64,000 bases of DNA from Mobula hypostoma. Taxonomy: Eukaryota. Positions 4,571 to 56,510 of the stretch are shown in pieces. The stretch's first letter is position 1; each line of letters starts with the position of its first letter. Where the stretch lies: positions 10,974,001-11,038,000 of the forward strand of contig NC_086097.1 in assembly GCF_963921235.1 (NCBI RefSeq). The letters are read 5' to 3'. A model generated the notes under the pieces. It was not told where the DNA came from and searched no databases. It saw only the letters and a program-made list of their open reading frames with translations. Made by a program: the position numbers and the translations under genes.

Positions 4571-4604
4571 GTCAACGTTTCAGGCCGGAACCCTTCGTCA
4601 GGAC
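4571..4604 (-). ncRNA. Minimal type I hammerhead ribozyme motif (core intact)
   Basis: Reverse complement reads GTC-CTGACGA-AGGGTTCCGGCCT-GAAA-CG-TT-GAC. Confidence 0.8.
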
Positions 4605-5159
4605 TGCAGAGGGAAGGGGCAGAGGCCCTATAAAGAAGGTGGGGGGAGGGTGGGAAGGAGAAGGCTGGTAGGTTCCAGGTGAAAAACCAGTAAGGGGAAA
4701 GATAAAGGGGTGGGGAAGGGGAAGCAGGGCAGTGATAGGCAGGAAAGGTGAAGAAAGAATAGGGGAAAACACAATGGGTAGTAGAAGGAGGCGGAACCAT
4801 GAGGGAGGAGATAGGCAGCTGGAGGAGGGGGCAGAGTGAAATAGGGATAGAGGAAGGGAGGGGGAGGGAATTACCGGAAGTTGGAGAATTCTATGTTCAT
4901 ACCAAGGGGCTGGAGACTACCTAGACAGTATATGAGGTGTTGCTCCAACCTGAGTTTAGCCTCTTCATGGCAGTAGAGGAGGCCATGTACGGACATATCC
5001 GAATGGGAAGCAGAGTTGTGTTTTCCCCTATTCCTCCTTCACCTTTCCTGCCTATCACCTCCCTGCCTCCCCCCCCCCACCCCTTTATCTTTCCCCTTAC
5101 TGGTTTTTTCCCACCCTCCCCCCACCTTCTTTATAGGGCCTCTGCCCCTTCCGTCTACA

Positions 5160-5193
5160 GTCCTGACGAAGGGTTCCGACCCGAAACGTTGAC
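5160..5193 (+). ncRNA. Minimal type I hammerhead ribozyme motif (core intact), sense to SEL1L pre-mRNA
   Basis: GTC-CTGACGA-A-GGGT(TCCG)ACCC-GAAA-CG-TT-GAC. Confidence 0.8.
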
Positions 5194-5985
5194 CGATCCT
5201 TTCCACAGATGCTGCCCGACCTGCTGAGTTCCTCCAGCGTGTTGTGAAAATTTTTGTGATGTTTCTAAATCAGTAGTTCTTAGACTCCTAATCTCAAATC
5301 ATTTTAAAAACAATTCTGCACATATAATTTCATAGAATTTAACTTTGGCTCCTAACAAAGCCTGTTGAGTGTTTTGGGATGAAACCTCAGCAGTATAACT
5401 AATTAGGCCTCACTGCACTTCCTGAATTCAGTGGGTGTAGTTAATTGGTCTTCAATCCAGCCAATGTAAGTGGCATTGGGCTGCATCTAGCACAGGTTGT
5501 CCTTTATTGCAGTTCAGTAGTTTTAGTCAGGTTTGGTCTCACTGGCATATGTCATCATGAAATATGTTGTTTTGCCATAGCAGTATATTGTAATGTATAA
5601 TATATAAAACTATAAATTGCAATCAGAAATGTATATGAAAATTAGTGCAAGAAGAGGAAAAAAGAAGGGGGCTGTGTACATGGGTTCGTTGTCATTCAGA
5701 AATCTGATGGTAGGGGAAAAAGATATTACTGAAATGTTGAGTGTGTTTTATGGGCCTCTACTTCAGTTGGTACAATATTTGCATTGTAAACATCCATTCT
5801 CTGCACAAGTGAAATCACGGTTCAGAAATGACTATTTTTAGATTGCAGTTTTTTTTTCTCTCTCCGTATTACAACTCTTTTGTCTGTGGGTTTTTACTCA
5901 TTTGAGTACTTGGGATAACAATCTACTTTATACTTTGTACTATGTACTTTGCATTTTCTGATTTGAATTGCTTCATCTTCTGCAG

Positions 5986-6151
5986 CTGTTCAAAAATGTC
6001 TGTGAGCGAGGTCGCTGGTCAGAGCGGCTGATGTCTGCATATAGTAGCTATAAGGAGGGCGACACTGATTCTGCTTTGGTCCAATACCTGTTGTTAGCTG
6101 AACAAGGCTATGAGGTGGCCCAGAGCAACGCTGCCTTCATACTGGATCAAA
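5986..6151 (+). CDS. SEL1L: SEL1L coding exon, [19 protein letters not shown]...[11 protein letters not shown]
   Basis: tgcag acceptor, gtaaga donor; 166 nt, phase 0/1; lies within ORF 5968..6282. Confidence 0.97.
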
Positions 6152-53165: not shown

Positions 53166-53177
53166 CTGCCCGAATAA

Positions 53178-55075
53178 GTTTGGGGGGTGGGGAAGAGGAT
53201 AGCTGGAAGGTGACAGGTGAAGCCAGGTAGATGGGAAAGGTAAAGAGCTGGAGAAGAAGGTATTTGATAGGAGAGGAATGTGGAATTGATAGGTAGGTGA
53301 GAAGAGGTAAAAATCCAGAGTGGGGAATAAAAGAAGAGGAGAGCAAGAGAGATTTTATTTTACCTGAAGGACAAATCGATATTCATGCCATCAGGTTGAA
53401 TATAAGGTGTTGCTCCTTCACCCTGGGGATGGCCTCATTGTGGCACAAGAGGACCAGGAATGTGAATGGGAATGGGAATTGGAATTAAAGTGTTTGGCCA
53501 CTGGAAAGTTCTGATTTCGGCTGATGGAGCGGAGATGCTTGAAGAACTGATGCGCCAGTTTACGATGGGTCTGACTAGTATGAAGCCTTCAAGTTGTTAT
53601 AGCTGGGGTAGCAATGAAGACAAGCTCCCACTACCTATTGAACGCTCCCAATGCTGTGCACCTCAACTAGCCTCTGACAACCAAGTCCAGCTCCTGGCCT
53701 TCATGTGTGTCTTAGCTATCAAGCTTGGTGGAACCATTTCTACTGACAGGAGAATGGGAATAGGCGGGTTACTGGCACCATAAAACCAGGCACTTCAGGC
53801 ACATCAGCTATGGTTGGCAGCTCATCTAGGAGAAGGAAAACTCTCAAACTTCTGCCACCTTGAGGCTATACCCATATGGGGAAGGCTTTGGGAGTAAACC
53901 CCAAGGGAAAGCTCTGGAGCTGGAGTCCCTAAGGCAGTCCTCTGTTGAGTTCAACACTGACTGGCAACTTGAGCCATGCTGCTGGTATCAAACTGTATCA
54001 GTGCCTGCTGTTCTTTTGGGTTCATTAGATGTGTGGAGAGGTAGATACTGCTGCATGGGCAGCAGCTTGCTCTCCATATCGTACAGCCCAGGCTTGCGTA
54101 TCTAGACAGCTGAGATGCAACATCCATGGTCAACCTTGACCAATGGAGGCCTCATTCACTCACTACTATAGAGGAGGCTGCACTGGGAGCACTGGATACC
54201 ATAGACGACCTCTAGCAGATTCATGGGTGGCCCTGGGAGGAAGTGAGGGAGAAAGTGAATGGGCAGGTGTAGCTTTTTGACCACTTGCAGGGATAAGTGC
54301 TGGGAGGGAGATTCGTGAGAAGAGATAACTGGATATGGGGGGAGCAATCCCTGCAGAAAGCGGAGAGTGGGGTGGGGGGTGGTAATGATGTGCTTGGTGA
54401 TAGGATCCCTTTGAAGATGGCAGAAGTTGTGGAGAATGGTGTGTTGGATGCAGAGGCTCATGGGCTGTCATTGTTAAGGTGGGGGGAAGATGAACTGAAG
54501 ATGTCCAGGAAATGGAGGAGATGCGGGTGAGGGCAGAATCAATAGTGGAGGAAAAGAAATCTCGTTCTTTGAAGAAGGAGAATATCTCTGATGTCCCGGA
54601 AAGGAAAGCCTCATCTTGGGAACAGATGCCTCAGAGACAAAGAATCTGAGAAAAGGGAATAGTAGTTTTTACATGAGACAGGGTGGGTATAGGTAAGGTC
54701 AAGACAACCATGGGAATTGGTGGGTTTATAAAAGATATCGATTTATCTCCAGTGATGGAGACAGAGAGATCGAGAACAAGGAAGGAGGTGTCAGAAATGG
54801 ACCAAGTGAATTTACGGGCAGTTTGAAATTTGGAGGTAAAGTTGATGAAATTGATGAGTTCAACGTGTTTGCAGTCTTCAGTGTCGTGGAGGAAGAACTG
54901 GGGAAGGCTTGGAACATGGACAGTTCTACTTAGCCAATGAAAAGGCATAGCTGGGGCCCATGCCCATAGCAACCCCTCGAGTATGGAGCAAGTGGGAGGA
55001 GCCAAAGGAAGGATTGTTGAGGGTGAGGACCAGTTCTGGCAGACGGAGGAGGACGGTGGTGGAGGGGAACTAATT
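53178..55075 (-). mobile_element. Older Penelope-like element (RT, linker, GIY-YIG, 3' UTR), interrupted at ~53580-54150
   Basis: Minus-strand remnants GVAMGMGPSYA, KFTWSISDTSFLVLDLSVSI, IQHTILHNFCHLQRDPITKHI and VVYGIQCSQCSLLY; C-terminus resumes at ~53370-53575. Confidence 0.8.
53580..54152. repeat. ~570 bp insertion of unassigned family inside the Penelope GIY-YIG domain
   Basis: Penelope coding remnants are colinear on both sides of it. Confidence 0.5.
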
Positions 55076-56117
55076 GTTGTTTTTAATTGAGAAAGAAATA
55101 TCTATCTATCTATTTATTACTTACTAGAACTTCTGTATGACGAGAAATTGTGTTGACTAAGCCTAAATTCACTACAGTTCAGAAGAATGAGAGCAGATCT
55201 CATTGAGGAATATACACTTCTGATAAGACTAGACGTAGAGTGGAATTGTAGTCTCTCTGAAGTGGTGTGTTAGTCATTCCTCAGTTTGAATAGTTCATCA
55301 ACATTTTCCACTCTTCAGCCAGATGTCTCCATATAACGTGTACTTGGTTGTAGCTGGTGGAGGATGGGATTTGCTACCTCTGAGCAAGCTTCCTAAAAAA
55401 ATATTCTCCATGGTATGACTTTCCCCTATTTTGATATTATTTTCTTTCTGCCATTGCCAAAATTAGATCTCACTATCATGTAATGATGATATTGGCACGC
55501 TGGAAAAGATTTCTCATCGATATCTAACATAAGTAAAGGGCTTTAATTTTAACAACATTTTTAATAATTCAACTGTGTATAAAATATATATCTAAGTTTA
55601 AAATGCACCATGACATACTGAAATGCATAAATTAATTTTAAGTGATTATTTGGTCTTAGAATCTAACTTAATGTATAACATTGTGTTTTCAGGATCAGAG
55701 GAGTAGTATTAGTCTTTATGACATAATACTAAAAGGCTCAATCACATTCATTTATCAAGACTCTTTTCAGCAGGAATAGTAGAACAAAATGTTGAAATTT
55801 TGTTCAATTAATCCTTACATTTTTCTTTATTTCTAAGGATATTGTCAATAGTAACTTCTAGATTTCATCATTACCATCAATTCCAATGTAATGGCAACAA
55901 ATACTGACAGCTGTTTCATTATTTCTTTTGGAGTTTGAGGAGACTTAGACTCTCACCAAAGACCCTTGCAAATTGTAATTCGTAGTTTTTATTATCATGT
56001 ACTGTTTCTCAAAACAACAGATTTCACAACATGTCAGTGATATTAAGCTTGATTCTGATTATAAACTCAAGGGATTCTGATCAGTGCAACTGCAGAATTG
56101 GAGCTCATAGTTTTCCT

Positions 56118-56510
56118 TAACACGAGAAAGTCTATAGATGGTGGAAATCCAAAGCGACACACACATAATGCTGGAGGAACTCGGCAAGTCAGGCAGCATC
56201 CATGGAAAAGAAGAGATGGTCAACATTTCAGGCCAAGACCCTTCTTCAAGACTGAGACGGTCGGGCGAAGACAGCAGAACAAGCAGGTGGGGGGAGGGGA
56301 AGCAGGCCAGCTGGAAGGTGATAGGTAAAGCCAGGTGGGTGGGAAAAGTAAAGGACTGGAAAAGAAGGAATTTAATAGGAGAGGAGAGAGGACCATAAGA
56401 GAAAGGGAAGGAGGAAGGGACCAGGGGCAAACAACAGGAAGGCAAGAAGAGGCAAAAGGCCAGAACAGGGTAGAAAAGGAAGAGGGGATGTGGTGGTGGC
56501 GGGGGAATCT
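56118..56510 (-). mobile_element. Older Penelope-like terminal repeat/3' UTR with a decayed hammerhead (56219-56252)
   Basis: Reverse complement GTCTTGAAGAAGGGTCTTGGCCTGAAATGTTGAC, plus a purine-rich tract. Confidence 0.75.

What the first reader, a model, noticed from the sequence alone, without database searches (positions are those of the whole stretch)
4571..56252. High-copy Penelope-borne minimal hammerhead ribozyme family (about one motif per 4 kb)
Seen: the motif GTC-CTGACGA-[AGGGTCTCGGCCT or AGGGTTCCGACCC]-GAAA-CG-T(C/T)-GAC, which gives stem I (GTC/GAC), the CUGANGA core, a stem II hairpin, GAAA, a stem III reduced to the palindrome ACGU, and a GUC/GUU triplet. Core-intact copies are at 4571-4604(-), 5160-5193(+), 46688-46721(-), 48341-48373(-) and 48375-48411(+). 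Variant or decayed copies are near 6399, 8357, 17369, 17403, 21165, 31554, 34183, 35805, 42078, 46730, 49993 and 56219. The motif lies directly downstream of GIY-YIG coding sequence (30572-31630 and 4476-5244). At least two subfamilies differ in stem II and flanks but share the core. Established: Penelope-like elements carry minimal type I hammerheads with a palindromic stem III that are thought to cleave as dimers. Inference: this genome carries a very large, mostly non-autonomous ribozyme-bearing repeat population that could be mistaken for an ordinary SINE.
Basis: partly seen in the sequence, partly recalled or inferred. Interest (0 to 1): 0.8.

Follow-up and report, generated by a model that had tools for sequence, protein, structure and literature searches.

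The report
Penelope retrotransposon ends with minimal hammerhead
The repeated motif is real: it is the small hammerhead ribozyme already known from Penelope-like jumping genes, carried here on mostly truncated copies of a young, very abundant element in what looks like a cartilaginous-fish genome, so it is a new large example of a known thing.

Summary
They are pseudo-LTR ends of an endonuclease-bearing, Neptune-type Penelope-like element (3,513-bp unit, 1,016-aa RT/GIY-YIG ORF, many open 98-99% identical copies). The hammerhead fold is supported: distant relatives keep the core at the same place, with covarying stems and different stem III palindromes. This is the minimal hammerhead of Cervera and de la Pena 2014. 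Corrections: only 3 window copies meet the full descriptor; the motif lies 270-300 nt after the stop codon; core-intact density is one per 35 kb; copies are dead-on-arrival truncations that decay about neutrally, not a separate non-autonomous family. Extras: 18 of 18 head-to-head pairs are single insertions (9-16-bp duplications) with one long and one short arm, fitting two-strand priming. Copy 5' ends pile up just upstream of the core (17 of 100), not at the cut site (3 of 100). The young subfamily has U at the usually fixed C11.1. Cleavage is untested. The scan reported the same kind of element before, in this and other genomes.

The parts
4476..5244 (.). One head-to-head insertion of subfamily B (769 bp): long arm on minus with endonuclease C-terminal fragment, short arm on plus; 13-bp target duplication at 4463-4475 and 5245-5257
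4571..4604 (-). Minimal hammerhead, subfamily B, meets full descriptor (GUU triplet, 3-bp stem I, U11.1)
5160..5193 (+). Minimal hammerhead, subfamily B, meets full descriptor (GUU triplet, canonical G10.1-C11.1)
4880..5017 (-). C-terminal fragment of the GIY-YIG endonuclease (residues 968-1014 of the young ORF, 77% identity)
3774..3828 (+).
6398..6480 (+). Old short copy starting near stem I; core decayed
8302..8388 (-). Old short copy starting near stem I; core decayed
17310..17522 (.). Head-to-head insertion of subfamily B (213 bp), both motifs damaged; 13-bp duplication at 17297-17309 and 17523-17535
21097..21493 (-). 5'-truncated copy: UTR plus motif (core kept, stem III and stem I mutated), short 3' end
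30569..31653 (+). 5'-truncated young copy: last ~230 codons of the ORF (zinc-finger linker and GIY-YIG, 93.5% aa identity, two in-frame stops), stop 31254-31256, 298-nt UTR, motif 31554-31587 with G8 changed to A, short 3' end
34122..34304 (-). Older-subfamily copy with UTR; motif 34183-34218 decayed
35799..35890 (+). Old short copy starting at stem I; core decayed
41979..42110 (-). Old short copy starting at stem I, long 3' end; core decayed
46623..46861 (.). Head-to-head insertion of subfamily A (239 bp); both arms start at stem I; 14-bp duplication at 46609-46622 and 46862-46875; minus motif 46688-46721 meets full descriptor, plus motif 46730-46762 has G12 changed
48243..48466 (.). Head-to-head insertion of subfamily A (224 bp); 13-bp duplication at 48230-48242 and 48467-48479; motifs 48341-48373(-) and 48375-48411(+) keep the core but lack a full stem I
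49994..50083 (+). Old short copy; core decayed
53398..53585 (-). Old endonuclease-region fragment of the same element kind, no motif found beside it
54229..55075 (-). Old RT/thumb fragment of the same element kind (67% DNA identity to the young unit)
56119..56385 (-). Older-subfamily copy with UTR; motif 56219-56252 decayed; long 3' end

Best explanation
The motifs are the minimal type I hammerheads in the pseudo-LTR of an autonomous, endonuclease-bearing Penelope-like retrotransposon with a Neptune-type linker. It expanded recently to hundreds of thousands of copies in a cartilaginous-fish-like genome. Shown from sequence: the unit is 3,513 bp; the ORF (1,016 aa) starts 138 nt after the predicted cut and ends about 300 nt before the next motif; copies end at two sites, about +55-68 and +96-109 from the cut. 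Inferred: the endonuclease makes a staggered cut about 13 bp wide, and each target strand primes its own cDNA, one at each site. The cDNAs truncate at their 5' ends and join, which gives head-to-head pairs or apparently single arms. Uncut RNA is the template. The ribozyme is under selection only in source elements. It probably cleaves weakly, as a dimer through the 4-nt palindrome and with help from the element's protein (inferred from related elements, about 65% likely for at least one subfamily here). The genomic copies are inert fossils. Confidence is for the identity plus the fossil reading; the two-strand priming step alone I put at about 0.7.
For: Full-length partial tandems with open ORFs. 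RT and GIY-YIG profile matches, both below Pfam's curated cut-offs. DKG, CX4CxxC linker and CCHH residues in the alignment. In 80 distant loci (34-62% aa identity), 22 descriptor hits, 19 in sense, against 0 in reversed sequence and 0 in each of 20 shuffles. A core-only search finds the core 95-215 nt after the ORF end in 12 of 27 loci with a full C-terminus. Stem I pairs 93% against 44% shuffled, 0 of 500 shuffles, across 15 sequences. Stem III stays a palindrome at 4 or 6 nt with four different sequences. 18 of 18 divergent pairs are flanked by 9-16-bp duplications and have one long and one short arm (chance 4e-6). Of 22 neighbour pairs within 4 kb, 15 are divergent. Only 3 of 100 copies start within 3 nt of the cut site (by eye). 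Core sites vary in 10.4% and non-core sites in 15.3% of young copies, 9 sites each. PMC11167929: the anole element primes at two internal sites, extends both strands, and its hammerhead is protein-assisted and dispensable for insertion in vitro.
Against: No cleavage assay and no confirmed RNA data. The dominant young motif has G10.1-U11.1 instead of G-C (36,060 against 5,457 exact copies). Its predicted monomer is an inactive rod in which the core pairs with the cleavage triplet (-11.5 kcal/mol). The drawn double-hammerhead form scores only -12.5 for two strands against -31.3 for the dimer minimum (tertiary contacts not counted). 15 of 27 distant loci show no strict core after the ORF. The covariation set was chosen by a descriptor that already demands pairing. 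None of 8 single-armed window copies shows a duplication longer than 8 bp. In the duplication control, 33 of 306 mismatched pairs share 9-10 bp, so the three shortest duplications (9, 9, 10 bp) are weak. Core sites do vary somewhat less than non-core sites overall; the gap shrinks to about 8 versus 8 non-CpG changes in the first 100 listed rows once CpG sites and other-subfamily rows are set aside.
Confidence: 0.85

Rival explanations
1. A large share of the short copies is a true non-autonomous family (SINE-like or retrozyme-like) that is transcribed from its own internal promoter and mobilised in trans by the Penelope protein.
For: 5' ends pile up in a 7-nt zone just upstream of the core: 17 clear of 100, against 5 of 100 in the next 13 nt (by eye). 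Many window copies of three subfamilies start there. The D. virilis Penelope promoter is internal (PMC2377424 passages). A 2026 preprint derives retrozymes from pLTRs.
Against: About 77 of 100 young copies run further upstream. Short arms are often joined to long arms in one insertion. Direct-orientation neighbours are rare, 3 of 22 within 4 kb, whereas retrozymes are tandem arrays with canonical hammerheads (PMC7229834 passages). The pile-up is explained by run-off from the first pLTR of the autonomous transcript.
Confidence: 0.1
2. In this lineage the motif no longer cleaves. It persists as a structural or regulatory element (template fold, RT stop, promoter or splice-acceptor context), or simply by recent descent.
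For: The youngest ORF-open lineage has U11.1 in 44 of 44 motifs (these loci were picked by likeness to a U-type protein), while all 22 distant hits have C there. Its monomer folds into an inactive rod. No excess of copies begins at the cut site. Cleavage is dispensable in vitro for the anole element, and Naiad elements thrive without hammerheads (PMC8557442 passages).
Against: The other core positions, the extra nucleotide before stem II and the stem III palindrome are intact in the young source sequence. G-U still pairs, and the 4-bp stem II remains the best local fold (-2.3 kcal/mol). Older subfamilies keep G-C. The change sits at a CpG and may have drifted in.
Confidence: 0.3
3. The inverted pairs arise by self-priming on an antisense template, or by later recombination between copies, not by priming of both target strands.
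For: Proposed for rotifer elements from palindromic junctions (PMC3846280 passages). Some junctions here are perfect palindromes. Arms of one insertion are more alike than the median of other insertions in 12 of 16 cases, equal in 2 and less alike in 2, which fold-back copying would also give.
Against: Fold-back copying or recombination does not predict that the two outer ends always fall at different fixed sites, each abutting its side of a target duplication (18 of 18). The arms are often very unequal in length, and either arm can be the tailed one.
Confidence: 0.15

Closest known systems
Minimal type I hammerheads (min-HHR) in pLTRs of metazoan Penelope-like elements (Cervera and de la Pena 2014, PMC4209133)
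   Same: [quoted passage not shown]
   Different: Count is about ten times that paper's highest vertebrate figures (about 9,000 in Xenopus, 4,000 in coelacanth; descriptors differ). The dominant subfamily has U11.1 where the paper calls G10.1-C11.1 highly conserved. Stem II is 4 bp. No cartilaginous fish is named in the two of four parts read; its supplements were not seen.
EN+ Penelope-like elements, Neptune clade; insertion architecture (Craig et al. 2021, PMC8557442; Arkhipova et al. 2013, PMC3846280)
   Same: Single RT plus C-terminal GIY-YIG ORF, DKG motif, CX2-5CxxC linker, CCHH motif, partial tandems, inverted 5'-truncated copy, 30-40-bp tail at one end, 8-10-bp duplications in rotifer examples.
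   Different: Duplications here centre on 13 bp. The tail rule was counted here (18 of 18, either arm). Neptune was not separated from Nematis by a tree.
Poseidon element of the green anole, PAc (Frangieh et al. 2024, PMC11167929)
   Same: Two adjacent internal RT start sites that define the tail; both target strands cut and extended; uncut RNA as main template.
   Different: Different clade. In PAc the ORF starts inside the hammerhead and the start sites lie 111-118 nt into the ORF; here both end sites lie before the first ATG at +138.
Non-LTR retrozymes of animals (Cervera and de la Pena 2020, PMC7229834; Li et al. 2026 preprint 10.64898/2026.07.22.740005)
   Same: Type I hammerheads at very high copy number (126,247 in axolotl), linked to Penelope pLTRs.
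   Different: Retrozymes are short tandem arrays, with canonical hammerheads in the 2020 paper, and give circular RNAs. Copies here are dispersed, often inverted, attached to element UTR or ORF, and rarely in direct tandem.

Membership tests
PLE minimal type I hammerhead | Core C3-U4-G5-A6-N7-G8-A9 and G12-A13-A14, with A15.1-U16.1 and H17 | tested here: met
   98,090 genome matches against 48 control; 3 window copies meet the full descriptor
PLE minimal type I hammerhead | Stems I and II supported by compensatory change | tested here: met
   Stem I: 4 of 4 pairs change on both sides, 93% paired, 0 of 500 shuffles, slid controls 28-37% (set chosen by a pairing descriptor). Stem II differs but pairs in the distant hits, not counted formally.
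PLE minimal type I hammerhead | [quoted passage not shown] | tested here: met
   Bulge chosen in 22 of 22 distant hits and 3 of 3 window hits
PLE minimal type I hammerhead | Palindromic stem III remnant | tested here: met
   4-nt palindrome in all subfamilies here; 4- or 6-nt palindromes of different sequence in distant elements; without demanding it, 10 of 12 strict cores show a perfect one
PLE minimal type I hammerhead | Conserved G10.1-C11.1 pair | tested here: inconclusive
   Met in 5,457 exact subfamily A copies and in window 5160; replaced by G-U in 36,060 exact copies and in 44 of 44 motifs from ORF-selected loci
PLE minimal type I hammerhead | Located in the pLTR of a Penelope-like element | tested here: met
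   One motif per 3,513-bp unit, between ORF stop and next ORF start
PLE minimal type I hammerhead | Self-cleavage 3' of the NUH triplet (dimer or protein-assisted) | not testable with these tools
   Needs an in vitro assay; only indirect genomic evidence
EN+ Penelope-like element | Single ORF with RT and C-terminal GIY-YIG endonuclease | tested here: met
   1,016-aa ORF; RVT_1 E=3e-5 and GIY-YIG E=5e-4, both under the curated cut-off
EN+ Penelope-like element | Partial tandems, inverted 5'-truncated copy, tail at one end, target duplication | tested here: met
   L052 and L054 are partial tandems; 18 of 18 inverted pairs with duplication and one tail
Neptune clade | CX2-5CxxC linker before the endonuclease, plus CCHH motif (linker absent in Penelope/Poseidon) | tested here: met
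   CX4CxxC and CxxC...H...H conserved; definition from PMC8557442 passages
Neptune clade | RT phylogeny placing it with Neptune rather than Nematis | not tested
   No named reference elements were at hand
Non-LTR retrozyme | Short tandem arrays with a hammerhead in each unit | tested here: not met
   3 of 22 close neighbour pairs are direct, one of them at about the full unit length; no array in the window
SINE or other independent non-autonomous family | Own lineage with fixed ends and diagnostic changes, independent of long copies | tested here: inconclusive
   A preferred 5' end exists in 17-18 of 100 copies, but no tree of short versus long copies could be built

The most novel reading that the evidence does not exclude
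This family records the Penelope insertion mechanism in about 10^5 copies. An RT-endonuclease dimer primes both strands of a ~13-bp staggered cut on one uncut RNA at two fixed sites about 38 nt apart, and short copies run off an RNA end that lies at the ribozyme's stem I. The largest recent burst came from a source whose ribozyme was weakened by C11.1-to-U. The hammerhead would then restrain its own element rather than serve it, and young versus old subfamilies would be a natural test of that open question.
Probability: 0.2. Interest if true: 0.65.

Novelty: new member of a known kind. Interest (0 to 1): 0.33.

Why it matters
The ribozyme class, its host element and the inverted, tailed insertions are all in print, so the finding is not a surprise. 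Its value is scale and youth. About 98,000 core-intact motifs and 36,060 identical 34-mers sit beside many open ORFs, which allows counts that small families do not. Two open points become testable: how inverted Penelope insertions form (here 18 of 18 fit two-strand priming), and whether the hammerhead helps or hinders the element (natural U11.1 and C11.1 variants, and no trace of cut RNA among the templates). For annotation, these 100-240-bp fold-back inserts should be labelled Penelope fragments, not SINEs, MITEs or microRNA hairpins.

Tried and rejected
Rfam (E<=10) gave no hammerhead match; its best hit, mir-3926 at 48335-48417 (38.5 bits against a gathering score of 82), is only the fold-back of an inverted insertion. 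RNA evidence: no RNA holder was listed among 22 runs. Four runs were laid; all are contigs with 'RNA' only guessed, so they say nothing on expression, ends or cleavage. They show only that related sequence exists in three coded organisms. No canonical splice joint to the acceptor-like site before stem I appeared among the 15 of 414 joints shown, so splicing is neither shown nor excluded. Folding the 186-nt pLTR-to-ORF stretch gave nothing beyond shuffles (z=0.33), so no long-range tail structure is claimed. Cleaved RNA as template was rejected on 3 of 100 copies. Selection on inserted copies was rejected as unnecessary. The other large repeat families of the window (10505-11623, 23357-25223, 57514-58262 and kin) are LINE 3' ends and carry no strict core. 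Target duplications were not found for 8 of 8 single-armed window copies. Paper searches for a report of this family in sharks or rays listed none by title or abstract; the 2026 preprint includes one unnamed cartilaginous fish, and its supplements could not be seen. Searches for data on a G10.1-U11.1 pair gave nothing usable. A sequence look-up of earlier scan findings was empty.

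
Full report
Observation. The genome is 3.48 Gb in 200 contigs. It holds 54,000 exact matches to the subfamily A pattern, 3,408 to subfamily B, and 98,090 to a core-only pattern with a free 13-nt stem II, against 48 for the control. 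That is one core-intact motif per 35 kb. Only 3 of the 5 'core-intact' copies meet a full descriptor. Rfam has no hammerhead hit at E<=10.

The host element. The reading frame at 30561-31253 is the end of a GIY-YIG protein. A cleaner copy used as query gave 239,602 first-look candidates; 134 were scored, 98-100% identical, with open frames up to 1,054 codons. Four long ones were fetched. All four have open frames over 1,000 codons, and two are partial tandems with a 3,513-bp period and one motif per unit. The ORF is 1,016 aa from an ATG 138 nt after the predicted cut; the next motif lies about 300 nt after the stop. RT and GIY-YIG profiles match below their curated cut-offs. The alignment shows DKG, a CX4CxxC linker and the CCHH residues, which by PMC8557442 (passages) excludes Penelope/Poseidon and points to Neptune or Nematis; I call it Neptune-type without a tree. 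The closest listed protein by identity is from Chiloscyllium punctatum, 72%, a bamboo shark (recalled), so the host is probably a cartilaginous fish (inference).

Is it a hammerhead? Within this genome the subfamilies are too close to show much. I therefore fetched 80 loci encoding distant relatives, 34-62% identical (the best 80 of 478). A descriptor found 22 hits in them, 19 in sense, and none in reversed sequence or in 20 shuffles. Without any pairing demand, 12 of 27 loci with a full C-terminus have a strict core 95-215 nt after the ORF end; 15 do not. In 15 aligned representatives the core is fixed while stem I changes on both sides at all 4 pairs: 93% paired against 44% shuffled, 0 of 500, slid controls 28-37%. 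That set was picked by a pairing descriptor, so the figure leans high. Stem III is a 4- or 6-nt palindrome of differing sequence, and all 22 hits have the extra nucleotide before stem II and C at 11.1. This is the min-HHR of PMC4209133 (parts 1-2 of 4 read), which cleaved weakly as dimers and not as a monomer.

How the copies were made. Measured from the cut site, 3' ends fall in two groups. For 18 distinct head-to-head pairs in hand (4 from the window; duplicate loci and pairs lacking a second end left out), the outer flanks share 9-16 bp, median 13. Every pair has one arm ending at +54 to +68 and the other at +96 to +109 (chance 4e-6). Mismatched control pairs share at most 10 bp, 33 of 306 reaching 9-10, so the three shortest duplications are weak. 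The four window insertions are 4476-5244, 17310-17522, 46623-46861 and 48243-48466. Among the first 100 core-intact matches, 15 of 22 neighbours within 4 kb are divergent, 4 convergent and 3 direct. Arms of one insertion are closer than the median of other insertions in 12 of 16 cases, equal in 2 and further in 2; a shared template or later conversion would both give this. The simplest model is priming of both strands of a staggered cut, one at each start site. It matches the anole element in vitro (PMC11167929, parts 1-2 of 4) better than antisense self-priming (PMC3846280, passages). The tail at one end is already described. None of 8 single-armed window copies shows a clear duplication, so the model is not shown for them.

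Was cut RNA used? If it were, copies should start at +1. Of the first 100 listed copies anchored downstream (127,764 in all), 3 start within 3 nt of the cut and one near +8 (read by eye), about 0.4 per base. Of the first 100 anchored on the core (76,863 in all), 17 clearly and 1 possibly start at -28 to -34, about 2.4 per base, against 5 at -35 to -47 (by eye). The sequence upstream of these starts is mostly the partner arm and shows no constant exon. So the preferred end is the 5' strand of stem I, not the cut. It may be a transcription start (the context resembles an initiator, recalled), a splice acceptor as in D. virilis, or an RT stop at the rod-like hairpin that spans -33 to +5. I favour a start site at about 50%.

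Selection on copies. The young 34-mer has 36,060 exact copies. Freeing 9 core sites gives 40,238 and freeing 9 non-core sites gives 42,554, or 1.2% and 1.8% per site. In the listed rows the excess is CpG change and other subfamilies, leaving about 8 non-CpG changes each. Inserted copies decay roughly neutrally; constraint acts on source elements.

The young motif is atypical. U11.1 outnumbers C11.1 by 36,060 to 5,457 and is present in 44 of 44 motifs in ORF-selected loci (selected by a U-type query, so C-type open ORFs were not looked for). The G-U pair costs 1.6 kcal/mol in stem II, and both forms fold as an inactive rod when alone. Whether this lowers activity is unknown; two searches found no data.

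RNA. No usable RNA data were found (see Tried and rejected).

Comparison and verdict. Everything that defines the feature is in print: the motif class, its place, truncated and inverted copies, the tail. Copy number is high for a min-HHR but near the 126,247 type I motifs of the far larger axolotl genome (PMC7229834, passages). Three searches listed no paper on this family in sharks or rays; supplements of PMC4209133 and of the 2026 preprint (parts 1-3 of 5 read) were not seen and may bear on this. The scan noted the same kind of element earlier, including the 5'-end clustering in another genome and one copy in this genome (read after my own counts). Verdict: real, a new member of a known kind, interest 0.33.

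Noticed in passing
window:10505-11620: A LINE (CR1-like by its translated 3' end and short terminal repeats; label recalled) also lies head-to-head with both 3' ends outward: a ~360-bp arm and a ~750-bp arm. No target duplication was sought systematically.
   Followed up: partly
window:23357-23751 and 24834-25223: Two 95% identical ~395-bp repeats look like an LTR pair but are 3' ends of the same LINE family, with a fragment of another LINE's RT between them.
   Followed up: yes
window:48335-48417: The fold-back insertion scores as microRNA family mir-3926 (38.5 bits, gathering 82). Such inserts would give long double-stranded RNA if transcribed and could be mis-annotated as microRNA precursors.
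   Followed up: partly
L052:1690-1696; window 4605, 5159, 34218, 56253: All subfamilies keep a pyrimidine tract and AG just before the last two bases of stem I, although that A cannot pair in subfamily B; it looks like a splice acceptor or initiator.
   Followed up: partly
L010:1475-1500; G000:C1:444733, 3315523, 1327915: Some apparently single-armed short copies have 6-20 nt at their 5' junction that read as the reverse complement of one of the two 3' end sites, as if a second cDNA had started and stopped at once.
   Followed up: no
L013:1121-1363: A subfamily A inverted pair is inserted into the UTR of a subfamily B copy, with a 13-bp duplication, which shows that A is younger at this site.
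   Followed up: partly
L054:1764-4811: The ORF has a ~110-aa proline/serine-rich insertion before the RT region that the invertebrate-like relatives in the alignment lack; the shark proteins have part of it.
   Followed up: no
L111, L112, L121, L123: A distant group has a 6-nt A/U-rich stem III palindrome and a UA cleavage end, with the motif about 1.1 kb upstream of the first aligned residue instead of shortly after the stop.
   Followed up: no
window:62136-62210: A GATA/TATC microsatellite in inverted arrangement gives spurious microRNA matches.
   Followed up: no
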